A DNA stretch of 64,000 bases from an uncultured Algimonas sp. (GTDB lineage Bacteria; Pseudomonadota; Alphaproteobacteria; Caulobacterales; Maricaulaceae), in the NCBI GenBank assembly GCA_964414555.1, contig CAYPWW010000003.1, positions 59 through 64,058 of the forward strand, in the 5' to 3' direction. The notes below the pieces were generated by a model. It was given only the letters and a program-made list of their open reading frames with translations. It did not search any database and had not been told where the DNA came from. Position numbers and translations under genes: made by a program. How positions within the stretch are numbered: position 1 is the first letter of the stretch; each line of letters starts with the position of its first letter. This document shows, piece by piece, positions 33,368 through 48,965 of the stretch.

Positions 33368-33545
33368 CCGCTCGATTCGGAGCCGAGTCGGAAATCGTCT
33401 GATTTTTACGTTTGTCGCGAGCATTATGGTTAACAAAACCTTGCGACCAAGAATCGAACACGTCCAACACACTTAGCAAGGGGACACAGCTCGTGTGACG
33501 CTTTGTTGTCGGGGCTGAGACAGACAAGGACGGGGAAACAGGGAT

Positions 33546-34055: not shown

Positions 34056-34083
34056 TTCAGTCGCTTAGACGGTCGATAAGTCA

Positions 34084-34135
34084 GGGTATAAATCCCCCAA
34101 ATGACTCGACTTTTCTATATATAGGAATATAATCC
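34084..34135 (+). promoter_or_regulatory. Putative promoter/operator of the GafY/Z-like pair
   Basis: TCGACT-N16-TATAAT (34106-34133). The -10 lies inside GGAA-TATA-ATCC, and a related GGGT-ATAA-ATCC sits 40 bp upstream. Confidence 0.45.
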
Positions 34136-34187
34136 TCATTATGAGGAACGGCGAGTAGAGTGGCCCGTTCAGTGAACGGAGACCCCC

Positions 34188-34529
34188 ATGCCGCGACGTC
34201 GCATATCACCACTCGACCCCGCTTTTACGCAGCTGACTTTGGCGGCTGTTGGCCTAGAATTTGGCCTGCCAGAGCTGTGTGATCCCACGCCACGACGCCG
34301 GACGAAGCAGATCGTCTTTGCGCGTCAGGTTGCCATGTATTTGGCGGCGACGGGCTTTAACATGACGACAACCCGCACGGCAGAGATGTTCGGGCGGGAT
34401 CGCTCAACGGTCTCTCACGCGCTGGGTGTTGTTGAGGATAGCCGCGATGATGCCGTCTTCAATCGCAAGCTCGAGAAGGTCGAGGTCTTCCTAGATCAAT
34501 GCCGCGAGAGTTTTGGAGTTGGCGTATGA
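34188..34529 (+). CDS. DnaA C-terminal-type helix-turn-helix protein (GafY-like / GafA N-terminal-like)
   Basis: IVFARQVAMYL...AEMFGRDRSTVSHA matches the DnaA domain IV HTH. Overlaps the next gene. Confidence 0.8.
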   Translation: MPRRRISPLDPAFTQLTLAAVGLEFGLPELCDPTPRRRTKQIVFARQVAMYLAATGFNMTTTRTAEMFGRDRSTVSHALGVVEDSRDDAVFNRKLEKVEVFLDQCRESFGVGV

Positions 34530-35248
34530 GCGCGTTTCAACCCATCTTGCAGAACATCTATCGCGTTGACGGTCTCATTGACCTCACGCCTCAAGGGGCA
34601 GAGCGACCCGTCTTCCCGCGCAGAGATCGACGCAAGCGTCCAGCACTTTGGCTCGAGCGGGACGCCTTTGCTTGGCTGCGCGCAGAGGGCGCGTTGGAGG
34701 AAGTCACGCGCGGTTATGTGCTGAGCCAGTCCACGGTCCGCAGGCTGCGTCACGGGCGCGAGGGCGCGCTGGGCCAGCATGAGGCCTTGCAAGAGCGTAA
34801 CATCTATATCCCCGGTGGGGCCATCCGTCCGGCTCATGTGAACACTCGGATTACGGCGCTGGACCGTCTCGCGCGGCGGCGCTTTCTGTCAAAGGCGGAA
34901 TATGAAGCTGGGCAAGCTTTGGCGCGGGATTATGCGCGGGCCGGGCACGGTCAGATTGCGACGCAGGACTTTATGGCCAGCGGTGCAGACGGCGGTGATC
35001 GCGCGGGTGCTGCGGAACGCGCTATGCTGAACCGTGTCACCGCGTCGACACGTTTGACCGCGGCCCGCGTTGCCATGGGTGAGGGGCTCGCCGGCCCTGT
35101 CATCGCTGTCTGCTGCCGGGATGAGCGGATTGATGAGGTTGAGCGCGCAGAGCGTTGGGCGAAAGGCGCGGGTCGAAATCTGATCAAGGTTGGCTTGGGG
35201 TGTTTGGTCAAACTCTATGGAACACAACCGGGTCAAAGCGCTCAGTAA
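34526..35248 (+). CDS. DUF6456-like protein (GafZ-like / GafA C-terminal-like GTA activator)
   Basis: LDRLARRRFLSKAEYEAGQALARDY, VCCRDERIDEVERAERWAKGAGRNLIKVGL. Start ATG 34526. Confidence 0.7.
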   Translation: MSAFQPILQNIYRVDGLIDLTPQGAERPVFPRRDRRKRPALWLERDAFAWLRAEGALEEVTRGYVLSQSTVRRLRHGREGALGQHEALQERNIYIPGGAIRPAHVNTRITALDRLARRRFLSKAEYEAGQALARDYARAGHGQIATQDFMASGADGGDRAGAAERAMLNRVTASTRLTAARVAMGEGLAGPVIAVCCRDERIDEVERAERWAKGAGRNLIKVGLGCLVKLYGTQPGQSAQ

Positions 35249-35305
35249 ATCCGGAGGCGGTGAAGGTTTAATCCACGGCGTCTGAGCTGGGTTTAAGCTG
35301 TTCAG

Positions 35306-35632
35306 ATGACAGATAAAGACCGTTTCATCTCCCTCGACGCCGCGCAAGTCGCGCTAAATCAGAGCCTCGTTAAACTGACATCTCAATTGGAAGAGACGCC
35401 AGAAAAGGCTGCGCGCGGGCTCTCTATTACTCTCAAGGCTTTGGCCGATCTGCAGTCCCACCGTGACGCCATCCAAGCCCGCGAAGCCGCGTCCGAATAC
35501 ACACGCTATGAGGACCTTCCACCCCCGCCGCCGGATGAAGTCCGCAAATTCAGAAAGCTGTTTAACAAGATGGTGGACGCCAAGGTCGAAGCTCGTCTGA
35601 GGCAAATAGGCCAAGACAAGGGCTCGTCATAG
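35306..35632 (+). CDS. Probable GTA small terminase subunit
   Basis: 108-aa helical protein ending 1 nt before the large terminase. The call rests on position. Confidence 0.55.
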   Translation: MTDKDRFISLDAAQVALNQSLVKLTSQLEETPEKAARGLSITLKALADLQSHRDAIQAREAASEYTRYEDLPPPPPDEVRKFRKLFNKMVDAKVEARLRQIGQDKGSS

Positions 35633-35633
35633 A

Positions 35634-36866: not shown

Positions 36867-36897
36867 TCTACGCTGTTTGCCTGTGCGAGGGGACGGT

Positions 36898-37410
36898 ATG
36901 GAATATATGCTGCTCTTCGTTGCCGCCTTGGGACTGATCTTTTTCTTTGGGCGATCCAAGGCACCGTTTTCTGCGCCAGAGGTTTCACCGATTTCTGATC
37001 AAGCCCTTGAGGCGTTTGAAGTTGCGCCAAGCCTCTGGGTCAATATGCCTGAATTTGCGCTTTATCAGGCTCTGCTCGAAACACTGCCTGCCGGGTATTC
37101 GGTGCATGGCAAGGTCCGCTTGGAAGATATTATCCGCGTGAAACGTCACGTGAATCCAAAGCTGCGTTGGTCTTTGCGCGGGCGTGTCAAATCCCGCCAT
37201 GTAGACTATTTGATTATTGATCGGCACGGGCACCCAATGATGGCGATTGAGCTAGATGGAAGCAGCCATAATGCTCGTAATCCGTCAGAAGCGGATAAAG
37301 TCAAAACCGCCCTGTTTGCCGCCGTGGGCCTGCCACTGAACAGAATTCGCGTTGGCGAAGATTTTCGCCGTATTACCGCCGCAATCCTCTCCGAGTTAAA
37401 GGACTCTTAA
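36898..37410 (+). CDS. DUF2726 domain protein (membrane-anchored, PD-(D/E)XK-like)
   Basis: N-terminal TM; KVRLEDII, RHVDYLI, AIELDGSSH, DKVK...AVGLPLNR. Confidence 0.85.
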   Translation: MEYMLLFVAALGLIFFFGRSKAPFSAPEVSPISDQALEAFEVAPSLWVNMPEFALYQALLETLPAGYSVHGKVRLEDIIRVKRHVNPKLRWSLRGRVKSRHVDYLIIDRHGHPMMAIELDGSSHNARNPSEADKVKTALFAAVGLPLNRIRVGEDFRRITAAILSELKDS

Positions 37411-37453
37411 CCACGTTATAGTTGTGTAGGGACGCACAGCTTTTGGAGAAATC

Positions 37454-37891
37454 GTGCTCGGTCGTTTATCGAAAAAGTCCCGCCACGCGGCAAAATCTGC
37501 GTTGAAAGATACGGAGTCGAAGCTTGCCTTGCTGAAGCTTGAGCTCGCCGCACAGCAAGTGAGCTTGGCCCGTCAGACGGATGATCTTGCGCCGCTCTCG
37601 GCCGCGTCAGAGGCTTTGTTAGAAGCCCGCCGCCTGTTCACATTTGAGCTTTGCCCAAAAGAAGTCCTGACGGTTCAGCGCGCTCTCGCGGATACGCAAC
37701 TGCGTCTCGCCCGCGCCCACAAAGATAAAGCCGCGATCCGAACAGCGCGCGATTACTACCGATCTGCGATCACGCTCGCCTCTATGTTGGGCGAGGATGA
37801 GCAGCGCGAAGACATTCGTATCAATATGAAAATCGCGGAAAGCCTTCTGGGCCGCAGACCGCAAGCTACGTCCCTGTTTGACGCCGCGTAA
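37454..37891 (+). CDS. Hypothetical all-helical (TPR-like) protein
   Basis: GTG start follows a GGAG RBS. Amphipathic helices (ARDYYRSAITLA). No family recognised. Confidence 0.55.
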   Translation: MLGRLSKKSRHAAKSALKDTESKLALLKLELAAQQVSLARQTDDLAPLSAASEALLEARRLFTFELCPKEVLTVQRALADTQLRLARAHKDKAAIRTARDYYRSAITLASMLGEDEQREDIRINMKIAESLLGRRPQATSLFDAA

Positions 37892-38040
37892 ATCTGTTCT
37901 CTTTCAATGATTTGAGAGAAAAGTGCGGAGATAGATCCGCGCCCGTCCGGTTCCCCCTATAACCAGCTTATCGACGCAATTGTGTCCACGTGTTTTCGGA
38001 CCCAAGCGTCTCCCCGCTGTTTTCAACCGGACCCTCCATT

Positions 38041-39201
38041 ATGCTCAATCCTTTCCGACGCGCCGTTGCGTCGCCTTTACCCGTGCCCGAACAAAAGGCG
38101 GCACGTCCGCTCGTTGCGTTAGAACTGCGGCGTCAGGGGCAGGGCACGGCGCGGGACTTTGGCGCACTCTGCCGCGAAGGTTATGCGCGCAATCCGATTG
38201 CTTATCGCTGTGTTCGCTTGATCGCAGAGAGTGCCGCGTCGGTCCGGCTGCAGGCCAATGATCCAGATGTTTCGCGGGTCTTGTCGCGGGGCTTACCCGG
38301 ACAATCAGCCGTCGAAACCTTTGAGGCCTTTTACGGCTATCTTCAGGTCGGCGGGACGGCCTTTTTAGAAGCCGTCCTCTCGCCAGATTTGGATGGGGAT
38401 GAACGTCCGATCGCGGTGGTTGCGCATCGCCCGGACGGGTTTGCCATGGGAACAGATTCCAAGGGCCGTTCAACAGGTTGGGAGCAGACGCGAGACGATA
38501 AAACCCGACGGTTTCCGCGTGACCAACTGAGTGGACGTAGCGCGCTGCATAATATGCGCCTGTTTAATCCGGCAGATGATTGTGCCGGATTATCCCCGCT
38601 CTCTGCCGCTGCTCAGGCCGTTGATTTGCATAATCGCGGCGGGGCTTGGGCCAAGGCGCTGCTTGAAAATTCTGCGCGCCCTAGCGGGGCATTGATCGTC
38701 AATGCGCAAGGCGGGGATCGTTTGAGTGATGAGCAATTCGATCGGTTGAAGGCAGAGCTGGAAGGAAACTTCTCTGGCCCTAGTCGTGCTGGCCGTCCCA
38801 TGGTTTTGGAAGGCGGCCTCGATTGGAAATCCATGTCGCTCTCGCCCGCCGATATGGATTTCACCGCAACACGCCGCGAAGCCGCCCGCGATATTGCGCT
38901 GGCCTTTGGCGTGCCGCCGATGCTGCTGGGTATTCCAGGGGACAATACTTACGCGAATTACCGCGAGGCGAACCAAGCCTTCTGGCGTCAGACGATTATC
39001 CCACTGGTCGCGAAAACAGCAGCAGGTCTCCAAGACTGGATGGCCCCATTCTTTGGCGATGATCTACGGATTGCGCCGGATCTCGACCGCGTTCCAGCCT
39101 TGGCAGAAGAGCGCGCGATTCTCTGGAAACGTCTCTCCGATGCAAGCTTTGTGACAGAGGCGGAGGCTCGCGACATTGCTGGGTTGGAGGTCGCGCCATG
39201 A
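38041..39201 (+). CDS. HK97-family portal protein
   Basis: GYARNPIAYRCV, NSARPSGAL, VLEGGLDWK, AFGVPPMLLG.PGDNTYANYREA. The start is uncertain (38041 or 37990). Confidence 0.95.
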   Translation: MLNPFRRAVASPLPVPEQKAARPLVALELRRQGQGTARDFGALCREGYARNPIAYRCVRLIAESAASVRLQANDPDVSRVLSRGLPGQSAVETFEAFYGYLQVGGTAFLEAVLSPDLDGDERPIAVVAHRPDGFAMGTDSKGRSTGWEQTRDDKTRRFPRDQLSGRSALHNMRLFNPADDCAGLSPLSAAAQAVDLHNRGGAWAKALLENSARPSGALIVNAQGGDRLSDEQFDRLKAELEGNFSGPSRAGRPMVLEGGLDWKSMSLSPADMDFTATRREAARDIALAFGVPPMLLGIPGDNTYANYREANQAFWRQTIIPLVAKTAAGLQDWMAPFFGDDLRIAPDLDRVPALAEERAILWKRLSDASFVTEAEARDIAGLEVAP

Positions 39202-39455
39202 ACGACACGACCCTTATGAAAAGTCCGACGCAATTTGATCGGACGATCACCCTGGGCCTGATCTTGACGGTCCTGTTTCAAACAGCGGGCGGATTTATGT
39301 GGGCGGGTGCGGCCGCCGCGCGCCTGACCTCGCTAGAAGCTCAACTGGCCCATCATCCTGATATTTCAGAGCGTCTAGCGCGCTTGGAGGGCAAATCCAC
39401 GCAAATGGCGCAAAGCCTCTCGCGCATTGAACGGGAGCTGATCCGTGAAAACTGA
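39198..39455 (+). CDS. Small GTA protein with one TM segment and a coiled coil
   Basis: TITLGLILTVLFQTAGGFMWAG followed by a heptad region (RLARLE...LSRIE). Overlaps portal and protease. Confidence 0.7.
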   Translation: MNDTTLMKSPTQFDRTITLGLILTVLFQTAGGFMWAGAAAARLTSLEAQLAHHPDISERLARLEGKSTQMAQSLSRIERELIREN

Positions 39456-39897
39456 ATTGCATATTTCTGGCTATGCCAGCCTGTTCGGCGAGACCGACCT
39501 CATGGGCGATACCGTCGCCCGCGGGGCTTTTGCCGCGTCGCTTCTCTCACGTGTGGAAAAGCTTCCCATGCTGTCGGGTCACCAAACAGATCAACCGATT
39601 GGCGTCTGGGACCGCGTTGTCGAGGACGCGCGCGGCTTGTTTGTTTCGGGCCGGATTTTGTTAGGCTCAGAGCTCGCGGATACGACCGCACGGCTGATCC
39701 AAGAGGGCGCGATCAGTGGCCTGTCCATTGGATACCGAACCCGGCGAAAAACCCCGAAGGCTCGCGGCCGACAGCTTACAGAAATTGATCTTTGGGAGGT
39801 GTCTGTCGTCGCCTTCCCGATGCAGCGCACTGCGCGAATTACCCACATTGGCGACGCCTCACACTCCTCACCTCAACTTGCAAGGACTCCTGCATGA
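39445..39897 (+). CDS. HK97-family prohead protease
   Basis: ISGYASLF, MLSGH, GLSIGY, LWEVSVVAFP. Confidence 0.92.
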   Translation: MKTELHISGYASLFGETDLMGDTVARGAFAASLLSRVEKLPMLSGHQTDQPIGVWDRVVEDARGLFVSGRILLGSELADTTARLIQEGAISGLSIGYRTRRKTPKARGRQLTEIDLWEVSVVAFPMQRTARITHIGDASHSSPQLARTPA

Positions 39898-41048
39898 CGA
39901 CCGAATTGGAAACAAAAATGACCCCTGAATTGAAAACGGCCCAAGCCGACTTTGCCGCAACCTTTGCGGCGTTTCGTGACGCAAATGACGCGCGTCTGAC
40001 TGAAATCGAAGCTAAATCTGCCGCTGACCCGCTACTCGGCCAACAGGTCGAACGGTTGAACGCGGCGTTGGACGCGCAAACGCGCCGTATCGAAACGTTG
40101 ACGCTCTCCGGTGTGCGTGGCGGCGGCGCAATTGCTGCGCCCGCTGAAGCCAAATCCGCTTGGTCGTCTTTCATCCGCACGGGTGACGCGACGGCGCTGG
40201 AAGGCAAGTCGCTTGCCTCGATGGACGGTGAGGGCGGCATGATCGCCCCGATCGAAACAGAGACGCGCATTGATGCTGTTCTAGCCGAGACCTCGCCCAT
40301 GCGTGGCCTGGCGACAGTCCGCACAATCGGCGCCTGTGCCTTCCGCAAGCCCGTCTCTATGGCCGGCGCCAGTGCTGGCTGGACAGGCATTGCCGCTGCC
40401 ATCGACGCCGACGCACCACAGCTCGAACTGCTCGATTTCCCAACGGATGAGCTTTACGCCATGCCGGCCGCGACGCAGGCCCTGCTGGATGACAGCGTAG
40501 CCGACGTCGATGCGTGGCTGGCCGACGAAGTGCGCGATGTCTTCTCAGCACAAGAAACGGCCGCCTTCGTCAGTGGCGACGGTGTGGACAAGCCCAAAGG
40601 CTTCCTGACCTATGGCCTCGATCAGATCGACACAGGCACAGCCGGTGAGATCAATACCGATGATCTGATTGACCTGATCTATGCGCCGGAGTCCCGATAT
40701 CGTACGGGAGCGAGCTTTGTCATGAACCGCCGCACGATCAACAGCGTGCGCAAGTTCAAGGACGCAGATGGTAATTACATCTGGCAGCCCTCTATCGCGT
40801 CCGGCACGCCGTCGACCTTGCTGGGCTATCCTTTGGTCGAGATGGAAGAGATGCCCGACATTGCGAGCGGTAACGCCTGCGTTGCTTTTGGTGACTTCCG
40901 TCGCGGTTATCTGATTGCCGACCGTCAGGGCGTGCGGGTCTTGCGCGATCCGTATTCTGCCAAGCCTTACGTGCTGTTCTACACGACGAAACGTGTGGGC
41001 GGTGGCGTTCAAGATGTGGACGCGATCAAGCTGCTCGCCGCTGTCTAA
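39894..41048 (+). CDS. Major capsid protein (HK97 fold)
   Basis: ELYAMPAATQALLDD, GDGVDKPKG, KFKDADGNYIWQP, FGDFRRGY, LRDPYSAKPYVLFYTTKRVGG. Start ATG 39894. Confidence 0.96.
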   Translation: MTTELETKMTPELKTAQADFAATFAAFRDANDARLTEIEAKSAADPLLGQQVERLNAALDAQTRRIETLTLSGVRGGGAIAAPAEAKSAWSSFIRTGDATALEGKSLASMDGEGGMIAPIETETRIDAVLAETSPMRGLATVRTIGACAFRKPVSMAGASAGWTGIAAAIDADAPQLELLDFPTDELYAMPAATQALLDDSVADVDAWLADEVRDVFSAQETAAFVSGDGVDKPKGFLTYGLDQIDTGTAGEINTDDLIDLIYAPESRYRTGASFVMNRRTINSVRKFKDADGNYIWQPSIASGTPSTLLGYPLVEMEEMPDIASGNACVAFGDFRRGYLIADRQGVRVLRDPYSAKPYVLFYTTKRVGGGVQDVDAIKLLAAV

Positions 41049-41073
41049 ACCGACACCACTCAACTGCTTTTCG

Positions 41074-41102
41074 AAGCCCGCCATCCGGCGGGCTTTTTTA
41101 TT
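41074..41102 (+). terminator. Intrinsic terminator between the capsid and head-completion/tail genes
   Basis: AAGCCCGCC-ATCC-GGCGGGCTT-TTTT. Confidence 0.85.
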
Positions 41103-41122
41103 TCCACTTAGCTGAGGCTCCC

Positions 41123-41629
41123 ATGACATTGACTGATCTTGCCCCGCCGCCGTCGGGAGCCGTATCGCTGGCTGCGGCAAAGACATTTCTGCGCGTCGAT
41201 ACCGATACGGAAGATGCGCTGATCTTAGAGCTGATCGCGACGGCGGCAGCCTATATCGAAAACCTCTGCGCGCTCTCCCTCATCACGCGCGCGCAAAGCT
41301 TGCGCCGCCCAGTCGAAGCCGGGACCGTGCGCCTGCATCGCTATCCCGTGACCTCGATTGAGGCCATTCGCTTGGACGGCACAGCTATTGATAGCGCGGC
41401 AAATTTGCGCGCGCGTCCAGTCACCGTGACAATCCCGCGATCTGGCGTCGTTGAGATCGATTTTACGGCCGGCTTCGGCACGGATCCTGCGGATATTCCG
41501 ACACCATTACGCCAAGCCCTCTTGCTTCTCGTGGCGCATCTTTATGAGCATCGCGGCGATAGCGCCGCGCCGCCCATCCCGATGATGGTAGATGCACTGG
41601 TAGCACCCTATCGGGGGCTGCGACTATGA
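41123..41629 (+). CDS. Head-tail connector (adaptor, gp6/gp15-like)
   Basis: VSLAAAKTFLRVD...EDALI, FTAGFG...PTPLRQALLLLVAHLYEHR. Confidence 0.9.
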   Translation: MTLTDLAPPPSGAVSLAAAKTFLRVDTDTEDALILELIATAAAYIENLCALSLITRAQSLRRPVEAGTVRLHRYPVTSIEAIRLDGTAIDSAANLRARPVTVTIPRSGVVEIDFTAGFGTDPADIPTPLRQALLLLVAHLYEHRGDSAAPPIPMMVDALVAPYRGLRL

Positions 41630-41943
41630 TCGGGCGGTTACGGACCCGACTGGGCCTCTATACGCCGTCAGTTGTCGCCGATGATCTGGGTGGGACTGTC
41701 ACGACCTGGGCGTTCCAGCGTAAACTCTGGGCGGCGATCCAGCCCAAGACGATCTCTGAAGTGCGTGAGAACGGGCGCTTGGCCGTCACGCAGAGCTACC
41801 GCGTCGTCATTCGTTATGACCCGCATTTTCCCGAACGTGCGCGCCTCATCTGGGGCAGCCGAATTTTACGCGTCATCGCCGCCAGCGACCCCGACACGCG
41901 GGGTGAGCGTTTGCATCTGATCTGTGAGGAGGAACACCAGTGA
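41626..41943 (+). CDS. Head closure protein (stopper)
   Basis: IGRLRTRL, DDLGG, LWAAI, DPDTRGERLHLICEE. Confidence 0.88.
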   Translation: MIGRLRTRLGLYTPSVVADDLGGTVTTWAFQRKLWAAIQPKTISEVRENGRLAVTQSYRVVIRYDPHFPERARLIWGSRILRVIAASDPDTRGERLHLICEEEHQ

Positions 41944-42377
41944 GTATCACCGAACAGGCCGAAGCGCTCGCGCTCGCTGTCCACGCTGTCTTGGCCGAGG
42001 ATATCGGCATCAACGACGCGCTGGGCGGTAATGGCACGCCGCCGCGCCTCTATGACGCCGCGCCCGAAGATCCGATCTTCCCCTATCTCACCTATGGCGC
42101 GATGCGGTCCGAGGATATTGGCGCGGATGACACCCCCATGGCCGTGCATCAGATGACCTTGCATGTGTGGTCCCGCTATTCAGGACGCGCGGAAGTGCTG
42201 GGCCTGCTCACGCGAGTGGGGGCGGCGCTAAAGGCGGAACGCCTCAGTGATACCGGACATATCGCCGTGCGCAGTGCCAACCCCGTTTACTCCGATGTCT
42301 TACGCGCCGCTGACGGCCGCACCCAGCACGGCTTGTTGCGCATCTCATTCACCACACAAATTGGAGGCGCAGCATGA
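41940..42377 (+). CDS. Tail terminator (DUF3168)
   Basis: LYDAAP, FPYLTYG, HQMTLHVWS, DGRTQHG. Confidence 0.88.
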   Translation: MSITEQAEALALAVHAVLAEDIGINDALGGNGTPPRLYDAAPEDPIFPYLTYGAMRSEDIGADDTPMAVHQMTLHVWSRYSGRAEVLGLLTRVGAALKAERLSDTGHIAVRSANPVYSDVLRAADGRTQHGLLRISFTTQIGGAA

Positions 42378-42781
42378 GCGCACAACAGGGCAGCCAAATG
42401 CTGCTGAAAATCGAACGTGACGGCGTTTTTACGACCGTCGCGGGATTGCGGACCAAATCTCTGCGCCTGAATGCCAAGCCCGTCGATGTGACCGATACGG
42501 GCTCGGGCGGCTGGAAAGAGCTTTTGCCGGGGGCAGGCATCCGCACGGCGGAAATCTCTGGCACAGGGGTGTTTCGCGATGCGGCATCAGATGCCAGCGT
42601 GCGAGAGGCGTTTTTCGCACAATCTGCCCAGACGTGCCAGTTTGTCATTCCTGATTTTGGAACCATCATGGGCGCGTTTCATATCACGAGCCTATCCTAT
42701 GCCGGCAGCTATAATGGCGAGGCGCAGTTTGAGCTAACCCTCTCGAGCGCTGGCGTGCCGGTCTTCGCTGCCACGCAATGA
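42374..42781 (+). CDS. Major tail tube protein (TP901-1 family)
   Basis: AGLRTKSLRLNA..VDVT, ISGTGVF, PDFGTIMGAF, YNGEA.FELTLSSAG. Confidence 0.92.
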   Translation: MSAQQGSQMLLKIERDGVFTTVAGLRTKSLRLNAKPVDVTDTGSGGWKELLPGAGIRTAEISGTGVFRDAASDASVREAFFAQSAQTCQFVIPDFGTIMGAFHITSLSYAGSYNGEAQFELTLSSAGVPVFAATQ

Positions 42782-43044
42782 GCCCGCATATAAAACGCGT
42801 ACAAGTGGCGGGCGTCCCGACGGCGCTCAGGCTGACGGTCGGGGGATTGGCGGAAATCGCGAAACAGCTGGCGTGTGAAAGCCCAAGCGAACTGTCTGCG
42901 CGATTACGGAAAGCGCACACAGCGGATTGGAATGACGTCTTATCGGCTCTCGCAACGCCGCGCCTAGAGGGGCAGCTGTCAGAAGAAAACATCGCGGAAC
43001 TGCTACCTGAAATCAGCGCGCTGATCGTCGAGGCCTTGGCATGA
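42778..43044 (+). CDS. Tail assembly chaperone (GTA gp10-like)
   Basis: LRLTVGGLAEI; positioned after the tube gene. Confidence 0.75.
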   Translation: MSPHIKRVQVAGVPTALRLTVGGLAEIAKQLACESPSELSARLRKAHTADWNDVLSALATPRLEGQLSEENIAELLPEISALIVEALA

Positions 43045-43235
43045 GCTGGCCGTTTGAGAGCTGGCTGCAAATCGCCGTGCGGCGTTTTGGGATGAGTCCT
43101 GCGAATTTCTGGAACACCGATTTGCGCGACTGGCTCGTGCTGATGGAAACGACCCGTGTGGCCGGATGCGGGCAGACGGAATTGGGTGCGCTCATGGCGG
43201 CGTATCCGGATGAAGGATCTGAACATGCAGAGTGA
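43041..43235 (+). CDS. Phage tail assembly chaperone 2
   Basis: GMSPANFW...LGALMAAYPD. Confidence 0.8.
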   Translation: MSWPFESWLQIAVRRFGMSPANFWNTDLRDWLVLMETTRVAGCGQTELGALMAAYPDEGSEHAE

Positions 43236-43644
43236 GAATACACTGACAGAGGCCGCACGCGATGCGCTGGAGGGCTTTGCCAATGGCCCCGCCAGCCAGG
43301 CAGCCGATGACGTCGCCCGCGCCTTTGAACAGGCGGGCGATCGGATCGCGAATAGTTTGGAAAAAGCCGCGCAGACAGGTGAGTTTTCGTTCAATGCCTT
43401 GGCCGAAAGCATCACGCGTGACTTTGCGAAATTGGCAATTGATCAATTAATTACGGCGCCTTTGGAAGGGTTTGTTGGCTCTCTGACTGGGGCAATCACA
43501 GGCGCTCTGGGTGGTGCATCCGGACGCAATACTGTGACCGTGAACGTGTCCGGTGCAGCACAGGCGACAGGCTCTGGTGCGCAACCTTCGCAACGTCAAA
43601 TGGCCAATCGGATCGCATCCGTTGTGGCCCGATCGGGAGGATAA
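43225..43644 (+). CDS. Very short tail tape measure protein (139 aa)
   Basis: AFEQAGDRIANSLEKAAQTGEFSFNALA and VTVNVS...SQRQMA resemble GTA TMP. Start ATG 43225 overlaps the previous gene. Confidence 0.75.
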   Translation: MQSENTLTEAARDALEGFANGPASQAADDVARAFEQAGDRIANSLEKAAQTGEFSFNALAESITRDFAKLAIDQLITAPLEGFVGSLTGAITGALGGASGRNTVTVNVSGAAQATGSGAQPSQRQMANRIASVVARSGG

Positions 43645-43647
43645 AGG

Positions 43648-44268
43648 ATGACAGATTTTCACGATATACGCTTCCCGACACGCCTCGCTTTTGGTGCGAG
43701 TGGTGGACCTGTGCGGCGCACGGATATTCTCCAACTCGCCAGTGGTGGCGAAGCGAGAAACACGCCCCATGCTTTTTCTCGACGGAGATATAACGCGGTC
43801 AGTGGGTTAAAGTCACAGGCGGAGGCTTCTGAACTTATTGCATTTTTTGAATCTAGATTGGGCGCATTACATGCGTTCCGATTTCGGGATCCACTAGATC
43901 ACGCGACGGCTGAGAGCGTTAGCGCAACGGATGTCTTACTCGGGCTCGGCGATGGAGAGCGGACAGTTTTCCAACTCGCGAAAGCCTATGGGGCGGAACC
44001 CTATGTCCAGATGCGCCCACTGACGAAACCCGTAGTGGGGACCGTTCGCGTGGCCGTCGATGCCGTCGAAATTGACGTCGCAATTAATTACCTCACAGGA
44101 GAAATCACTTTTGAGACACCACCCTCAACGGGCGCAAGGGTCACGGCTGGATGCAAGTTTGATGTGCCGGTTCGCTTCGCGATGGATCATCTCGACATTG
44201 TCTTAAGCGACTTCGCGGCCACACGTATCGACGACATTCCTCTGATCGAGGTCTTGGATCATGTCTGA
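43648..44268 (+). CDS. Distal tail protein (DUF2460/TIGR02217)
   Basis: FHDIRFP...GGP, FRFRDPLD, TAGCKFDVPVRF. Confidence 0.92.
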   Translation: MTDFHDIRFPTRLAFGASGGPVRRTDILQLASGGEARNTPHAFSRRRYNAVSGLKSQAEASELIAFFESRLGALHAFRFRDPLDHATAESVSATDVLLGLGDGERTVFQLAKAYGAEPYVQMRPLTKPVVGTVRVAVDAVEIDVAINYLTGEITFETPPSTGARVTAGCKFDVPVRFAMDHLDIVLSDFAATRIDDIPLIEVLDHV

Positions 44269-44887
44269 GGTCTCAACCCGCTGTACGCTCTGGCAGCTCC
44301 GACTCGGCGATGGCCAAACTTATGGCCTCACGGATCATGATAGGCCTCTTGTGATTACCGACGTCACCTATTCTCCGCAGGCGAGTTTCACGGCGTCCGC
44401 GGCGGAACATCAAACAGGTTTCGATAGTGATAGCGGAACCCTCCAAACCGTTTTTGACGTCGTGGGTTTAGATGCGCAATCCATTGCTGACGGCGTATTG
44501 GACGACGCGCGCCTCGTGCAATTTTCTTACGACTGGCAGAGTGGCGAGGCACCGACCCGACTGAGCGAAGGACGGATTAGTGATGTGCGCGCTCAAGGTG
44601 ACGGGTTTGAGGCGGAATGGCTCGGGCTCGCCAGTCTGCTAGACCGTTCGCATGGCCGTGTGTTTTCGCGCCAATGTGACGCGAGCTTTTGTGATAGCCG
44701 CTGCGGTTTGAACCGCGCGGATTATCCGACTGAGACGGATTGCCCGCGCAGTTTTACCGCCTGCCGTGATATATTTGCCAATACGGAGAATTTTCGGGGC
44801 TTTCCTTACCTGCTCGGGGACGACGCGCTCCAAGCCGGGCCGATTGACAGTGATCGTCGGGATGGCAGCTCGCGCTATCGATTATGA
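44261..44887 (+). CDS. Baseplate hub protein (DUF2163), shortened
   Basis: GLTDHDRPL, QCDASFCDSRC...CPRSFTAC, NFRGFPYLLGDD. Confidence 0.85.
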   Translation: MSEVSTRCTLWQLRLGDGQTYGLTDHDRPLVITDVTYSPQASFTASAAEHQTGFDSDSGTLQTVFDVVGLDAQSIADGVLDDARLVQFSYDWQSGEAPTRLSEGRISDVRAQGDGFEAEWLGLASLLDRSHGRVFSRQCDASFCDSRCGLNRADYPTETDCPRSFTACRDIFANTENFRGFPYLLGDDALQAGPIDSDRRDGSSRYRL

Positions 44888-45345
44888 GTGATTCAGAGAC
44901 TCGGGTGGCTGTGCTGTCATGCTGCAAAGACTGGATCGACACGCCCTATCGTCATCAGGCGAGTGCGCGCGGTGCTGGCACAGATTGCTTGGGCTTGATC
45001 AGGGGCATTTGGCGCACACTTTATGGTGCCGAGCCTGAGACACCGCCAGCCTATACGCCAGATTGGTCGGATGCCTCCGGCGATGAAGCCTTGCTCGGCG
45101 CGGCGCGGCGCTGGCTCAAACCAATTACAAATGCTGCGATACAGCCGGGCGATGTCATGCTGTTTCGCATGTCCCCGGGCGTGCCATGCAAACACATTGG
45201 GGTTCTGACCGACACGCATATTCTGACTCATGCCTATTGGGGGCGCGCCGTCGTTGAGAGCGCACTTGTGCCCTATTGGCGCCGTCGCTGGGTCCACAGT
45301 TTCGCCTTTCCACCCCTGACACCCTTCGCGGAGACACCATCATGA
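44884..45345 (+). CDS. NlpC/P60 cell-wall peptidase of the tail
   Basis: WIDTPYRHQAS..GAGTDCLGLIRG, CKHIG, HAYWG. Confidence 0.93.
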   Translation: MSDSETRVAVLSCCKDWIDTPYRHQASARGAGTDCLGLIRGIWRTLYGAEPETPPAYTPDWSDASGDEALLGAARRWLKPITNAAIQPGDVMLFRMSPGVPCKHIGVLTDTHILTHAYWGRAVVESALVPYWRRRWVHSFAFPPLTPFAETPS

Positions 45346-48300
45346 CCAATCTCGCCGTTGCCGGGGTCCAGATCGCGGGCAATGCGCTCGTCCAAGCGGG
45401 CACAGCCATTGCGGCCCAAACCGCGAGCCAGTTCATTTCCAATGCATTCGACACGCGGAACTTTCAGGGCCCACAGCTCGAGAGCTTTCATCTGCAAACC
45501 TCACGCGACGGCGCCCCGATGCCGCGCGTATTCGGACGGGTGCGGTTGGCAGGGCAGGTGATCTGGGCCAGCCATATGCGCGAAACATCCAGCGAGGAAC
45601 GCGTCGGCGGTGGAAAAGGCGGGCCAACTCAGACGAATTATAGCTATTCGATCAGTTTTGCGATTGGCCTGTGCGAAGGTGAAATCCTCGGCGTTGATCG
45701 GATTTGGGCGAATGGCGCGCCACTTGCCACGGACGGGCTGACGATCCGGACGCATCGCGGAACATCGGATCAGCCGCCCGATCCCGTAATTGCCGCCACC
45801 GAACCCGGTGCCGTGCCCGCCTTCCGGGATACGGCCTATATCGTCTTTGAGGACTTCCCCTTGGACAATTATGGGGGGCGCTTGCCACAGATCAATGTCG
45901 AGATCGTTCGCGCCGTTGGTACGCGGTCTGGACGGCTAGAAGAACTGGTCCGCTCGGTTTGCTTGCTGCCGGGATCGGGGGAGTTTGCCTATAGTTCGAC
46001 AATCGTTGAGGAACGCCCAACTCCCGGCCTGACGCGCCCCGTGAATATGAATAATATGAGCGGGCAGGCAGATTTGGAGCTCGCGCTAGACCAACTACAA
46101 GCACAGCTGCCGAATTGTGGAAATGTCTCAATCATCTCGGCTTGGTTTGGGAGTTCTCTTGCTTGCGGGGAGTGCGAAATCCGTCCGGGGGTTGAACGTC
46201 GTGAGCGTGTAACTCGTGGGATCAGTTGGCACGTCGGGCGCGATGATCGCGGCACGGCCTATCTGATCAGTCAGGATGCAGAAGGTCGCCCGAATTTTGG
46301 CGGCACCCCGTCGGATGAGAGTTTGATCTCGGCCATTCGTTCACTGCGTCAGCGCGGGTTGAGTGTGACGCTTTATCCGTTCCTTATGATGGATGCGGAC
46401 GGGTTTCCCTGGCGAGGGAGAGTCACGACGCAGGATCAAAGTGTGACAACGCGAGCGGATGTTGAGGTTTTTTTCGGGACGGCACAGGTTTCAGATTATA
46501 GCCTTGGTGCCGGATCTGATCACTATCGCGCCGATGACAATCGCTACCGGAATTTCATTCTCTCTCATGCGAATTTGGCGCGCCGCGCTGGCGGTGTTGA
46601 TCGCTTTATCATCGGCTCTGAGATGAAAGCGCTAACAACCTTGCGTGATCCAGCCGGAGCCTTTCCAGCCGTCGAACAGATGGCTGACTTAGCGGCGGAT
46701 GTGCGCGCCATTTTGGGCCAAGATACGGGTCTGACCTATGCGGCGGATTGGTCAGAATATTTTGGGTATCAGCCGCAAGATGGATCGGGTGATGTGTTCT
46801 ATCACCTTGATCCACTCTGGGCGTCTCCAGCGATTACAGCCGTCGGAATCGATGCTTATTTTCCACTGTCAGATTGGCGAGATGGGGCGCATCTGGATGC
46901 TGATAACTTTGAGACACCTTATGAATTAGATTATCTAATTGCGAACATTGAAGGTGGCGAAGGGTATGATTGGTATTACGCTAGTGATGCAGACCGCGAA
47001 GCGCAAAACCGATTACCAATTTCCGATTGGGTCTACCGCTATAAAGACTTACGGAACTGGTGGTCCCAGCCGCATTTCAATGTTGTAGACGGCGTTTCCA
47101 TCGCGACAGACTGGCAGCCTGAATCCAAACCTTTCTGGCTGACAGAGGTCGGTTGCCCTGCTGTTCGATACGGCGCGAACCAGCCAAATCTATTCTCTGA
47201 CGGGAAAAGTATTGAGAGTAATATTCCATATTATTCAGATGGTTCACGTGATGATCTCATGCAGCGTCGATACTTGGAAAGCCTTATTGGCTATTGGGCT
47301 GGTGCCCAGAACAATCCTGTGTCGATTGTGACAGGGGCACGGATGATCGATCCTGATGCGACGAGTGTTTGGGCGTGGGACGCGCGGCCCTTTCCAGACT
47401 TTCCAGCGCGAACAGATGTCTGGTCTGATGGCCCAAATTGGCAGACGGGTCATTGGATAAACGGGCGGACGGGATTGGTTCCGCTGGGCGATGTTTTGAC
47501 GGAACTCACGGAGGAAGCAGGACTAGAAGACATTGATGTCTCTCGCGTCACAGGCCTTGTTTCGGGCTATGTCATTGACCGCCCGATGCGAACGCGAGAC
47601 GCGCTCATTCCGCTCTTGCAAATTTATGACGTTGTCATGGCAGAAACTGCCGGACAGGTAGAATTTTTTGCACCTGATGCGAAGCCCATCTTCGATATAA
47701 ATCCGTCGGAATTAATTGTTGCGGATATGGGGGCGATCACCTTTGAGACAGAAGATGGATCAGCCAGTCTTCGCGATGCGCGTGTCGCTTTTATCGACGC
47801 TGGACGCGACTATCAGATTGGCTCCGTTTCTGCGCGAAACGATCTGGCCGCGACGGTGCGTGTTGCTGACATACGCGCGCCGCTGGTCATGGACATAGGT
47901 CATGCGCGGGCGGTTGCGAATCGTGTTCTCGCACAGAGCGAACCCGCGCGACACACTGCGCGCTTTGCCGTGCCGCCCTCGACGGCTCGCGCCTTGTCCG
48001 CAGGCGGACGTGTCCGGTTGCCGGATACGGACGCAACTTGGCAGATCACATCTATCCTGTCTGGCACACTGTCAGAGGTGAGTGCCATCCAACTGGCCGA
48101 GACCGCGTTTGCGAAAGATGTTTCAGGGCCGACACCTGTTATAACGGCCACACCCAGCTGGGTGTCAGAGCCGGCTGCTTTGGTTTTTGATCTGCCCGGA
48201 CGAGCGGGGCCTCATGTTGGTGCGCTGATGTCGCCATTCCGCCCGGCGAGCTTAGAGGCTGGCGGGCAAAGCGTGACGACAGAGACAGCTGTGAAAATTG

Positions 48301-48965
48301 GCGCGACACTCAGCCCGCTGACGTTTGCGCCTGTCACAGTATGGGACCACATGACGACTCTCGATATCTGGTTGCCGGATGCGACACTCGTTGCGCGACC
48401 CGCGGCAGATATACTCTCGCAAGGTAATCGTTTCGCGGTTGAGACAGCCAAAGGCTGGGAGATTATCGCGGCGGCAAATATAACGCTAATCGGGCCAGAG
48501 CAGTGGCGATTGCGGACACTCTTGCGCGGGTTAGATGGGTCAGATGATGCGCAGGTTGAAAGCCTATCGAGCGGGGCGCGGATTGTCTGGCTCGATGCGG
48601 GCCTTGAAACGCTCAGCTTGGATGCTGATTACATCGGTCAACCCATAGAGCTGTCCGTCGTGGCCGGAGGGCGAACAGGTATTCCTGCGCAATTCACCTA
48701 TGAGGCCGCGCACCGCCGACCGCTGTCGCCTGTGCATGCCGAGGTTAAACCAATTCAATCCGGCGTGCGCCTCTCATGGATAGGTCGAAGCGCGATAGAT
48801 CGCGATGATCCACGGACCTATCGGGTCCGTTGGTTGGAACAGGTTTTGGAAACATCCGAGACCGTGGTCGACCTTCCGCTCTCGCTCGGTCAGCAGACGT
48901 CTGTAGAGATTTCTGAGATTGATCCGTTTGTTGGACCAGGGCCTGCGCTGGAAATCTACGTCTAA
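45342..48965 (+). CDS. Baseplate multidomain 'megatron' protein with GTA TIM-barrel-like domain
   Basis: GAPMPRVFGRVRLAGQVIWA, LPGSGEF, IGSEM, YAADWSEY, WLTEVGCPAV, WAWDARPFP. Start ATG 45342. Confidence 0.93.
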   Translation: MTNLAVAGVQIAGNALVQAGTAIAAQTASQFISNAFDTRNFQGPQLESFHLQTSRDGAPMPRVFGRVRLAGQVIWASHMRETSSEERVGGGKGGPTQTNYSYSISFAIGLCEGEILGVDRIWANGAPLATDGLTIRTHRGTSDQPPDPVIAATEPGAVPAFRDTAYIVFEDFPLDNYGGRLPQINVEIVRAVGTRSGRLEELVRSVCLLPGSGEFAYSSTIVEERPTPGLTRPVNMNNMSGQADLELALDQLQAQLPNCGNVSIISAWFGSSLACGECEIRPGVERRERVTRGISWHVGRDDRGTAYLISQDAEGRPNFGGTPSDESLISAIRSLRQRGLSVTLYPFLMMDADGFPWRGRVTTQDQSVTTRADVEVFFGTAQVSDYSLGAGSDHYRADDNRYRNFILSHANLARRAGGVDRFIIGSEMKALTTLRDPAGAFPAVEQMADLAADVRAILGQDTGLTYAADWSEYFGYQPQDGSGDVFYHLDPLWASPAITAVGIDAYFPLSDWRDGAHLDADNFETPYELDYLIANIEGGEGYDWYYASDADREAQNRLPISDWVYRYKDLRNWWSQPHFNVVDGVSIATDWQPESKPFWLTEVGCPAVRYGANQPNLFSDGKSIESNIPYYSDGSRDDLMQRRYLESLIGYWAGAQNNPVSIVTGARMIDPDATSVWAWDARPFPDFPARTDVWSDGPNWQTGHWINGRTGLVPLGDVLTELTEEAGLEDIDVSRVTGLVSGYVIDRPMRTRDALIPLLQIYDVVMAETAGQVEFFAPDAKPIFDINPSELIVADMGAITFETEDGSASLRDARVAFIDAGRDYQIGSVSARNDLAATVRVADIRAPLVMDIGHARAVANRVLAQSEPARHTARFAVPPSTARALSAGGRVRLPDTDATWQITSILSGTLSEVSAIQLAETAFAKDVSGPTPVITATPSWVSEPAALVFDLPGRAGPHVGALMSPFRPASLEAGGQSVTTETAVKIGATLSPLTFAPVTVWDHMTTLDIWLPDATLVARPAADILSQGNRFAVETAKGWEIIAAANITLIGPEQWRLRTLLRGLDGSDDAQVESLSSGARIVWLDAGLETLSLDADYIGQPIELSVVAGGRTGIPAQFTYEAAHRRPLSPVHAEVKPIQSGVRLSWIGRSAIDRDDPRTYRVRWLEQVLETSETVVDLPLSLGQQTSVEISEIDPFVGPGPALEIYV

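What the first reader, a model, noticed from the sequence alone, without database searches (positions are those of the whole stretch)
34188..35632. Split GafA/GafYZ-like activator pair directly upstream of the GTA structural cluster
Seen: an overlapping DnaA-HTH gene and DUF6456-like gene end 57 bp before the small terminase. Known, from recall: Rhodobacter GafA and Caulobacter GafY/GafZ are GTA activators with these domain types and are encoded away from the head-tail cluster. Inference: regulator and structural genes form one self-contained locus, possibly the ancestral GTA arrangement and a simple handle for inducing this GTA.
Basis: partly seen in the sequence, partly recalled or inferred. 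Interest (0 to 1): 0.62.

Follow-up and report, generated by a model that had tools for sequence, protein, structure and literature searches.

The report
GTA activator genes abutting GTA cluster
This marine bacterium (same genus as Litorimonas cladophorae) carries the already known two-gene switch for gene transfer agents (GafY plus GafZ) directly against the particle genes, because a block of about 12 kb of housekeeping genes left that spot; it is a tidy variant of a known system, not its ancestral form.

Summary
A 113-aa DnaA-domain-IV HTH gene (34188-34529) overlaps a 240-aa DUF6456 gene (34526-35248) by ATGA. That gene ends 57 bp before a 108-aa ORF abutting the large terminase of a complete RcGTA-type cluster (35306-48965).

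The pair is the published split form of GafA (GafY/GafZ). I could not align it directly with the Caulobacter or Rhodobacter proteins.

The tight junction is not ancestral here:
- Most genera of the family have mucR-mopJ-gafY-gafZ, then 6-16 kb of host genes (sufE to a CxxCxxCC gene), then g1-TerL.
- About 16-17 kb on either side are collinear with such a relative.
- Only this genus (9 of 9 genomes) and one other (2 of 2) lack the block, and its genes lie elsewhere in this genome.
- gafZ-sufE adjacency is also published for Hyphomicrobiales.

The 57-bp gap still holds a core promoter (AATCCA-18-TAAGCT-6-ATG). It is laid out like the one before g1 in relatives and like Caulobacter PgtaT. The gafY promoter has the same layout plus a GGAA-N4-ATCC dyad. 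Two sister genomes have only 12-24 bp with a ribosome-binding site, suggesting operon fusion.

Across the class, loose linkage of 30 kb or less between the DUF6456 gene and TerL is common. Modest interest.

The parts
34123..34136 (+). AGGAATATAATCCT dyad (GGAA-N4-ATCC) over the -35-like box of the gafY promoter; candidate operator for a RogA-like repressor
   Evidence: Read. The block TAGGAAwwTAATCCTC recurs upstream of gafY in almost all loci read from genera g1, g322, g328, g312 and g331; two have CCCAATATAATCCTC, and g2 has TTATCCTC. It differs by one base from the GGAA-N4-TTCC repeats reported for RogA at Caulobacter PgafYZ (PMC9632790). Binding was not tested.
34131..34161 (+). Predicted gafY core promoter: AATCCTC, 18 nt, TAGAGT
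   Evidence: AATCCTC followed at 17-18 nt by TAnnnT upstream of gafY in 16 of the 17 loci from these five genera in which that region was held. The pattern AATCCNC-N17/18-TANNNT gives 3 matches in the window against 0.53 expected. GGAG lies 6 nt before ATG 34188.
34188..34529 (+). gafY-like gene, 113 aa, DnaA domain IV-type HTH
   Evidence: PF08299 E 1.4e-12; NF004688 PRK06030 E 1.6e-15, below its cut-off; DnaA domain IV in the PDB; orthologues beside gafZ in all family loci read.
34526..35248 (+). gafZ-like gene, 240 aa, DUF6456 with a sigma region 4-like C-terminal HTH
   Evidence: PF20057 E 9.3e-18. Single copy in the genome. ATGA overlap with gafY. AlphaFold model of residues 155-240 has pLDDT 84. 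Its best fold matches are sigma region 4 domains (2h27, 3hug, 5fgm, 6kon; probability up to 0.97, TM 0.6-0.7), but E is about 1.
35270..35299 (+). Predicted core promoter of the GTA cluster inside the 57-bp gap: AATCCA, 18 nt, TAAGCT, then 6 nt to ATG 35306 (no ribosome-binding site, so g1 is possibly leaderless)
   Evidence: The layout ATCCnC-17/18-(c/t)AnnnT-6-ATG recurs before g1 in direct-junction genomes (L022, L023, L026, L028, L030) and in genomes that keep the host block (L032-L037). It resembles the mapped C. crescentus PgtaT: -35 AATCAT, GafZ site in the spacer, -10 TATCTTT (PMC11150451). Activity was not tested.
35306..35632 (+). g1, 108 aa, putative small terminase
   Evidence: Conserved ORF directly before TerL in relatives. 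No family match. Identity inferred from position, by analogy with RcGTA g1 (PMC6854486).
35634..36866 (+). Large terminase (g2)
   Evidence: Terminase_6N and Terminase_6C; 44-67% identical to GTA-type TerL across the class.
36877..37891 (+). Two inserted genes between terminase and portal: DUF2726 (36877-37410) and a 145-aa orphan (37454-37891)
   Evidence: PF10881 E 1.1e-20. Present in only some relatives: the orphan in L023, L027 and L028; DUF2726 in L031 and L036.
37990..41048 (+). Portal, 85-aa ORF, S78 prohead protease, HK97-type major capsid protein
41073..41096 (+). Intrinsic terminator between the capsid gene and g6: 10-bp stem with 7 GC pairs, then a T run
   Evidence: sequence. A hairpin with a T run sits at the same place in another genome of this genus (L045). 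A hairpin without a clear T run sits there in genus g312 (L043).
41123..48965 (+). g6-g15: connector, head completion, tail completion, tail tube, tape measure, DUF2460, hub, NlpC/P60, GTA_TIM/Rcc01698_C host-attachment protein

Best explanation
The two genes are this bacterium's orthologues of the split GTA activator. GafY is the DnaA-domain-IV HTH protein. GafZ is the DUF6456 protein, with a sigma region 4-like HTH. They are translationally coupled through an ATGA overlap.

In the family's usual layout, mucR-mopJ-gafY-gafZ is followed by sufE and about ten other housekeeping genes, and only then by g1-TerL. In this genus (the GTDB genus that holds Litorimonas cladophorae) and one further genus, that block was excised or relocated. 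The gafZ stop now lies 57 bp from g1.

Inferred working:
- A repressor of the RogA type sits on the GGAA-N4-ATCC dyad over the gafY promoter.
- When repression is lifted, GafY and GafZ are made.
- The cluster is then transcribed from the retained PgtaT-like core promoter in the gap (AATCCA-18-TAAGCT, starting at or near the g1 ATG).
- It is also transcribed by read-through from the gafY promoter, because no terminator separates gafZ from g1.
- GafZ-type antitermination carries RNA polymerase past the strong terminator after the capsid gene (41073-41096) into the tail genes.

Shown here: gene identities at family level, the overlap, the synteny, the derived origin of the junction, and conservation of both promoter layouts and of the terminator position.

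Inferred: every binding event, the transcription start sites, read-through and antitermination.
For: Domains. Single DUF6456 gene in the genome.

DUF6456 is the annotation of GafA homologues in Sherlock & Fogg 2022 (PMC9638019) and Kogay et al. 2022 (PMC9765227). The split form, with a DnaA-like gene in front, mucR upstream and sufE downstream, is published for Hyphomicrobiales. The same order was found here in genera g328, g312, g331 and g2.

A fused 382-aa relative covers both proteins: GafY profile E 6.6e-13 at residues 24-74, GafZ profile E 1.2e-48 at residues 105-373.

Junction: the distance from the DUF6456 domain to the TerL match is 413-549 bp in all 9 genomes of the genus and both genomes of genus g322. 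It is 6-36 kb on the same strand in 28 other family genomes. The genes in between are sufE, a histidine kinase, a BcsB-like gene, DUF1491, prfC, PAN/CAP proteins, PBP1 and a CxxCxxCC gene. Their homologues lie on other contigs of this genome. Flanks of about 16-17 kb on each side are collinear with a genome that keeps the block.

Promoters: compared with PgtaT in PMC11150451. No terminator-like site on the + strand between gafZ and g1.

Two sister genomes leave only 12 nt (L029, GGGGAG) or 24 nt (L031, AAGGA) between gafZ and g1. There the cluster most likely depends on the gafY promoter or on one inside gafZ.

Terminator after the capsid gene.
Against: No direct alignment with C. crescentus GafY/GafZ or R. 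capsulatus GafA could be made. Orthology rests on families, synteny and literature.

The window's DUF6456 score (65-67 bits) is low compared with most relatives (100-200 bits).

The 18-nt spacer of the gap promoter has no clear palindrome like the Caulobacter GafZ site.

In Caulobacter the GafY and IHF sites lie about 60-120 bp upstream of the promoter. Here that space is gafZ coding sequence, and I found no convincing sites.

The AATCCNC-N17/18-TANNNT pattern occurs 24 times in the genome, about the number expected by chance. Its weight comes from position and conservation, not from rarity.

Fold matches to sigma region 4 have E about 1.

Single-gene trees do not resolve whether the junction arose once or twice.

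Confidence: 0.7

Rival explanations
1. One reading: regulator genes directly ahead of the terminase genes are the ancestral GTA (phage-like) arrangement, retained here and lost elsewhere.
For: A DUF6456 gene lies 2.5 kb or less upstream of TerL on the same strand in four other, unnamed alphaproteobacterial families (f27, f166, f183, f49). Weak phage-family matches exist for both proteins (phrog_9734, phrog_21451). Earlier notes of this scan report a GafZ-like gene ahead of virion genes in a phage (unchecked).
Against: Within this family the block-bearing layout is the common one. Its gene content and order are shared by four genera, and the flanks are collinear. gafZ-sufE adjacency is also published for another order. 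The other tightly linked families carry gafZ alone, with no adjacent gafY and with different spacing, so they are not the same arrangement. A deep ancestral linkage of gafZ alone cannot be excluded, but it would not be what is seen in this window.
Confidence: 0.1
2. The junction is a neutral by-product of a rearrangement. g1 keeps its own promoter, transcripts from the gafY promoter do not matter for the cluster, and regulation is as in relatives with the block.
For: The core promoter layout before g1 is retained in this window and in five other direct-junction genomes. The breakpoint lies just upstream of it.
Against: There is no terminator between gafZ and g1. In L029 and L031 the gap is 12-24 nt with a ribosome-binding site and no promoter layout, which implies that upstream transcription suffices there. 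Any upstream activator sites of the old promoter were removed with the block.
Confidence: 0.2
3. The pair is not a GTA regulator. The DnaA-like protein acts on replication (as first proposed for HdaB) and the DUF6456 protein has an unrelated role. Proximity to the cluster is a coincidence.
For: The window's proteins score low against both family models. No experiment exists in this genus.
Against: In the class sample, 47 of the 77 genomes with a DUF6456 match also hold a GTA-type TerL, and most measurable distances are 30 kb or less. gafA homologues co-evolve with the cluster (PMC9765227). Gozzi et al. reassigned HdaB to GTA control (PMC9632790). Similar promoter layouts lie before gafY and g1.
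Confidence: 0.03

Closest known systems
Caulobacter crescentus GafY (CCNA_01111, formerly HdaB) and GafZ (CCNA_01112), with repressor RogA and IHF (Gozzi et al. 2022, PMC9632790; Tran and Le 2024, PMC11150451)
   Same: Two adjacent genes in one operon, a DnaA-domain-IV HTH protein followed by a DUF6456-type protein. The cluster promoter has a degenerate -35 of the AATCnn type. A GGAA-N4-type dyad lies over the activator promoter. An intrinsic terminator lies inside the cluster.
   Different: In Caulobacter the operon is about 1.8 Mb of gene numbering away from the cluster; here it is 57 bp away. No palindromic GafZ site is evident in the spacer. The space for upstream GafY and IHF sites is coding sequence. 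g1 is an intact ORF starting 6 nt after the -10, whereas Caulobacter has a 250-nt untranslated leader.
Rhodobacter capsulatus GafA (rcc01865; Fogg 2019, PMC6363796; Sherlock & Fogg 2022, PMC9638019)
   Same: The same two DNA-binding modules, a DnaA-like N terminus and a sigma region 4-like C terminus annotated DUF6456. It is a direct activator of an RcGTA-type cluster.
   Different: GafA is one fused 42-kDa protein encoded far from the cluster and controlled by CtrA and GtaR. Here the modules are split and adjacent to the cluster.
Split gafA of Hyphomicrobiales with mucR upstream and sufE downstream (Sherlock & Fogg 2022, PMC9638019, section 10)
   Same: Same split and same upstream mucR. In this family's other genera sufE is also the downstream neighbour.
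   Different: In this window sufE and the following genes are gone from that position, and g1-TerL take their place. A mopJ-like PAS gene lies between mucR and gafY.
Lambda Q-type late-gene antiterminators encoded just upstream of the late operon
   Same: A regulator that engages RNA polymerase at the promoter is encoded directly ahead of the terminase and virion genes, with a terminator downstream.
   Different: Different protein family. Here the position is secondary (derived), and the function is inferred only.

Membership tests
GafY / GafA N-terminal module | Small protein with a DnaA domain IV-type helix-turn-helix | tested here: met
   PF08299 E 1.4e-12, above the cut-off; DnaA domain IV chains are the best PDB matches.
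GafY / GafA N-terminal module | Encoded immediately upstream of, and co-transcribed with, the DUF6456 gene | tested here: met
   ATGA overlap at 34526-34529. The same order occurs in every family locus read.
GafY / GafA N-terminal module | Significant similarity to the characterised proteins (CCNA_01111; GafA residues at the N terminus) | tested here: inconclusive
   Reference sequences could not be fetched. Indirect evidence: a profile of family GafY sequences hits the N terminus of a fused GafA-type protein (E 6.6e-13), and phmmer hits Brevundimonas (Caulobacteraceae) neighbours of gafZ (E 1e-5 to 1e-8).
GafZ / GafA C-terminal module (DUF6456) | DUF6456 domain | tested here: met
   PF20057 at 65.1 bits, cut-off 26.3. 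The literature equates GafA homologues with DUF6456 proteins.
GafZ / GafA C-terminal module (DUF6456) | C-terminal sigma-70 region 4-like HTH | tested here: inconclusive
   The model of residues 155-240 (pLDDT 84) finds mostly sigma region 4 domains (TM 0.6-0.7, probability up to 0.97), but Foldseek E is about 1. The whole-protein search gave nothing significant.
GafZ / GafA C-terminal module (DUF6456) | Co-occurrence with an RcGTA-type head-tail cluster | tested here: met
   A complete cluster lies at 35306-48965. In the family, 74 of the 80 DUF6456-bearing genomes searched hold a GTA-type TerL.
GafZ / GafA C-terminal module (DUF6456) | Dedicated binding site (palindrome) between -35 and -10 of the cluster promoter | tested here: inconclusive
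   The spacer CGGCGTCTGAGCTGGGTT (35276-35293) has no clear dyad. Some relatives have GC-rich partial dyads, for example L022 CGCGCCCTTGGCGGG.
GafZ / GafA C-terminal module (DUF6456) | Antitermination of terminators inside the cluster; activation of GTA production | not testable with these tools
   A strong terminator is present at 41073-41096. Its function needs experiments.
RcGTA-type gene transfer agent cluster | Collinear g1-g15 set including the GTA-specific g12-g15 (DUF2460, hub, NlpC/P60, GTA_TIM/Rcc01698_C), in a fixed chromosomal position | tested here: met
   Host flanks are collinear between genera. Production of particles was not tested.

The most novel reading that the evidence does not exclude
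In this genus the GTA may have become one activator-first transcription unit, gafY-gafZ-g1...g15. Both promoters, before gafY and before g1, carry the same unusual -35-like box AATCC(T/A)C. This box would be read by the sigma region 4-like domain of GafZ (or by the GafYZ complex). The activator would then prime its own synthesis and the particle genes from two copies of one promoter type. In species whose gap has shrunk to 12-24 nt, the whole 14.8-kb locus would be a single autoregulated operon. This would be a natural series showing how a dispersed regulon collapses into an operon.
Probability: 0.25. Interest if true: 0.5.

Novelty: new variant of a known kind. Interest (0 to 1): 0.32.

Why it matters
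The GafYZ/GafA switch is the only direct activator known for RcGTA-type gene transfer agents. It has been studied only where it is unlinked from the particle genes.

This genus, which includes the cultured species Litorimonas cladophorae, offers a compact 14.8-kb locus holding activators, two matching promoters, the structural genes and an internal terminator. That makes it a convenient test bed for promoter recognition and antitermination by GafZ.

Its sister genomes form a graded series: block present, then a gap with a promoter, then a gap reduced to a ribosome-binding site. This shows regulator-target linkage evolving by deletion.

The survey also corrects an impression taken from the two model organisms. 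In most sampled genomes where the distance can be measured, gafZ is within 30 kb of the terminase.

None of this changes what is known about how GTAs work.

Tried and rejected
1. Fetching bona fide Caulobacter sequences failed.
- Two scans of genome contigs found nothing. One used a gafY-promoter probe sequence and one the PgtaT core sequence, both taken from the papers' supplements and text.
- The PgtaT pattern with 3 mismatches found nothing in 401 Caulobacteraceae genomes, nor in all 127 genomes of one large genus.
- A homologue search seeded with Brevundimonas halotolerans GafZ listed only Brevundimonas.
- The papers' supplements hold no protein sequences.

2. The synteny test for a Rhodobacterales-type gafA (lipA and guaA flanks) on the fused protein locus L020 was not met.

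3. Naming the other families with gafZ next to TerL gave only 'Alphaproteobacteria bacterium' MAG labels.

4. Solved-structure searches gave nothing for GafZ, and the whole-protein fold search gave nothing significant.

5. The 15-nt perfect palindrome TCCTCATTATGAGGA (34133-34147) was considered as an operator. I rejected it as evidence because it is not conserved in sister genomes. By my own arithmetic, about 4 such palindromes are expected per 64 kb.

6. A genome-wide scan for further promoters of the AATCCNC type gave 24 hits, about the chance level. No convincing extra regulon members emerged.

7. TerL and GafZ trees did not resolve whether the junction arose once or twice.

9. A RogA-like repressor was not identified with confidence. 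Of three S24-type proteins, one is LexA. A 208-aa cI-like protein on contig C22 is only a candidate.
Full report
**What is there.** On the + strand the window reads as follows.

| Coordinates | Gene or feature |
|---|---|
| 32975-33367 | mucR |
| 33546-34055 | mopJ-like PAS_5 gene |
| 34188-34529 | 113-aa Bac_DnaA_C gene |
| 34499 or 34526 to 35248 | DUF6456 gene |
| 35249-35305 | 57-bp gap |
| 35306-35632 | 108-aa ORF |
| 35634-36866 | large terminase |

- The DUF6456 gene is the only one in the 2.48-Mb genome.
- Its likely start is ATG 34526, which is the gene call's choice (P0001, 240 aa). That start forms an ATGA overlap with the gafY stop and follows a GGAG.
- The same 4-nt overlap was seen in several relatives (L022, L011, L034, L017).
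- Downstream lies a complete RcGTA-type head-tail cluster up to 48965. It includes the GTA-specific DUF2460, hub, NlpC/P60 and GTA_TIM/Rcc01698_C proteins.
- The 108-aa ORF has no family match in Pfam, NCBIfam or PHROGs. Calling it a small terminase rests on position and on its conservation before TerL in relatives.

**Whose genome.**
- The closest named GafZ-like proteins are from Litorimonas.
- One genome of the same GTDB genus (G501) has a contig of 1,640,783 bases, the length listed for the Litorimonas cladophorae protein P0010.
- The window therefore comes from that genus.
- A same-order family proved to be Caulobacteraceae, because G070 is Brevundimonas halotolerans.

**Is it GafY/GafZ?** I could not fetch the Caulobacter or Rhodobacter proteins, so membership rests on other evidence.
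- Sherlock & Fogg 2022 state that BLAST hits of R. capsulatus GafA are annotated as DUF6456 proteins.
- The same paper says that in Hyphomicrobiales the shorter 'gafA' is preceded by a small DnaA-like gene, with mucR upstream and sufE downstream.
- Kogay et al. 2022 list the gafA family as 'DUF6456 domain-containing protein'. They find it in 196 of 208 GTA-bearing genomes, co-evolving with the cluster.
- Gozzi et al. 2022 describe GafY as a DnaA domain IV homologue encoded in an operon with GafZ. They also say split pairs are commoner than fusions.
- In this family's other genera I found exactly mucR-(mopJ)-gafY-gafZ-sufE.
- A fused 382-aa protein from another alphaproteobacterium (L020) matches a profile of family GafY proteins at residues 24-74 (E 6.6e-13). 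It matches the entire GafZ profile at residues 105-373 (E 1.2e-48). This is the split-versus-fused relation expected for GafA.
- The C-terminal 86 residues of the window's GafZ fold with pLDDT 84. They retrieve almost only sigma factor region 4 domains, although with E about 1.

I take the identity as well supported at family level. The characterised references remain untested.

**Is the tight linkage ancestral?** I measured the distance between the DUF6456 match and the GTA-type TerL match at two levels.

In the family:
- The distance is 413-549 bp on the same strand in this genome, in all eight other genomes of the genus, and in both genomes of a second genus (g322).
- In 28 other family genomes gafZ lies 6-36 kb upstream of TerL on the same strand.
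- In a few genomes it is far away or on another contig.

The stretch in between has the same content and order in the four genera I read. It runs sufE, a histidine kinase, a BcsB-like protein, DUF1491, prfC, PAN/CAP-domain proteins, a class A penicillin-binding protein and a CxxCxxCC protein just before g1.
- Homologues of these genes exist in the window's genome on other contigs (C28, C67, C7, C89).
- Neighbourhoods of about 16-17 kb upstream (including the mrp operon) and downstream (portal to g15, a DnaJ-like gene, a two-component system and beyond) are collinear between the window and a genome that keeps the block.

The junction is therefore a clean excision or relocation of a housekeeping block. 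Because gafZ-sufE adjacency also occurs in another order, the block-bearing state is the older one. Single-gene trees were too weak to say whether the loss happened once or twice.

**Across the class.** In an even sample of 401 genomes, 77 have a DUF6456 match and 47 of those have a GTA-type TerL. The distance can be measured in 30 genomes.

| Distance from DUF6456 gene to TerL | Genomes |
|---|---|
| 2.5 kb or less, same strand | 9 |
| 5-30 kb | 14 |
| more than 50 kb | 7 |

- Besides this genome, the tight cases fall in four unnamed MAG families.
- There the gene next to the terminase is a DUF6456 protein without an adjacent gafY-like gene.
- That is a different arrangement from the one in this window.
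- Earlier notes of this scan describe similar GafY-less, cluster-linked cases. I treat them as leads only.
- The model organisms, with activators far from the cluster, are therefore not typical. I found no paper in the searchable library that reports this linkage.

**Control sequences.**

*Upstream of gafY.*
- The block TAGGAAwwTAATCCTC is conserved in almost all loci read from five genera. It is followed 17-18 nt later by TAnnnT in 16 of the 17 loci in which that region was held.
- In the window this reads AATCCTC (34131-34137), 18 nt, TAGAGT (34156-34161).
- The left part makes a dyad GGAA-TATA-ATCC. It differs by one base from the GGAA-N4-TTCC repeats that RogA binds at Caulobacter PgafYZ.

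*Before g1.*
- The 57-bp gap holds AATCCA (35270-35275), 18 nt, TAAGCT (35294-35299), 6 nt, then ATG, with no ribosome-binding site.
- The layout ATCCnC-17/18-(c/t)AnnnT-6-ATG stands before g1 in five other direct-junction genomes and in six genomes that keep the block.
- It resembles the mapped Caulobacter PgtaT, which has -35 AATCAT, a GafZ site in a 17-nt spacer and -10 TATCTTT.
- The breakpoint therefore lies just upstream of the old core promoter.

*How much weight the pattern carries.*
- The pattern AATCCNC-N17/18-TANNNT occurs 3 times in the window against 0.53 expected.
- It occurs 24 times in the genome, about the chance level.
- Position and conservation carry the argument, not rarity.

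*Variation and other signals.*
- Two sister genomes have only 12 nt (GGGGAG) or 24 nt (AAGGA) between gafZ and g1, with no promoter layout. Three others are unclear.
- No terminator-like site lies between gafZ and g1.
- A strong intrinsic terminator follows the capsid gene at 41073-41096. A hairpin with a T run sits at the same place in another genome of the genus, and a hairpin without a clear T run sits there in genus g312.

**How it most likely works (inferred).**
1. A RogA-like repressor holds the gafY promoter.
2. Once repression is relieved, GafY and GafZ accumulate.
3. The cluster is then transcribed from the gap promoter and by read-through from the gafY promoter.
4. GafZ carries the polymerase past the capsid terminator into the tail genes.

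The sister genomes without a gap promoter suggest that read-through alone can suffice. None of this has been tested.

**Verdict.** This is a real and correctly recognised GafY/GafZ-type pair, a known system in a new genus. Its abutment to the cluster is a derived, genus-level synteny variant with plausible regulatory consequences, not the ancestral layout. Interest is modest.

Noticed in passing
window 41073-41096: Strong intrinsic terminator (10-bp stem, T run) between the capsid gene and g6. A hairpin with a T run sits at the same place in another genome of the genus, and a hairpin without a clear T run in genus g312. It is a likely target for GafZ-type antitermination or a device setting the head-to-tail protein ratio.
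   Followed up: partly
window 36877-37891: A DUF2726 (nuclease-like) gene and a 145-aa orphan sit between the large terminase and the portal. Each is present in only some related GTA clusters, so they behave like moron-type insertions in a domesticated cluster.
   Followed up: partly
window 34066-34080, and the same position in L024, L036, L034 and others: Just after the mopJ stop, about 55-65 nt upstream of the gafY -35-like box, relatives carry a motif fitting the IHF consensus WATCAANNNNTTR (for example TATCAATAGCTTA and AATCAATAAGTTG). The window's copy (AATTCAGTCGCTTAG) has two mismatches. It could correspond to the IHF site reported at Caulobacter PgafYZ.
   Followed up: no
window 32975-34055 and loci L023-L037: mucR and a mopJ-like PAS_5 gene are conserved neighbours upstream of gafYZ across the family. 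mucR upstream of split gafA is also published for Hyphomicrobiales. This raises the question whether MucR silences the AT-rich gafY promoter.
   Followed up: no
class sample, loci L002-L009 (genomes G025, G205, G335, G306, G165, G182, G350, G047): In four unnamed alphaproteobacterial MAG families a DUF6456 (GafZ-like) gene without an adjacent gafY-like gene lies 0.9-2.5 kb upstream of the GTA terminase on the same strand. This is a different cluster-linked regulator arrangement.
   Followed up: partly
window 35623-35641: Inverted repeat CTCGTCAT-aga-ATGACGAG spans the g1 stop codon and the TerL start codon. It may affect translational coupling of the two terminase genes.
   Followed up: no
G000 contig C22:8700-9059: A 208-aa cI/LexA-like protein (HTH plus an S24 domain with a GDSM motif), distinct from LexA (contig C56), is a candidate RogA-like repressor of the gafY promoter. 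Identity was not established.
   Followed up: partly
Caulobacter PgtaT as described in PMC11150451, compared with loci L022-L037: In Caulobacter the transcription start is followed by a leader of about 250 nt before the true gtaT start codon. In this family an intact g1 ORF begins at the equivalent position. The Caulobacter leader may be a decayed g1.
   Followed up: no
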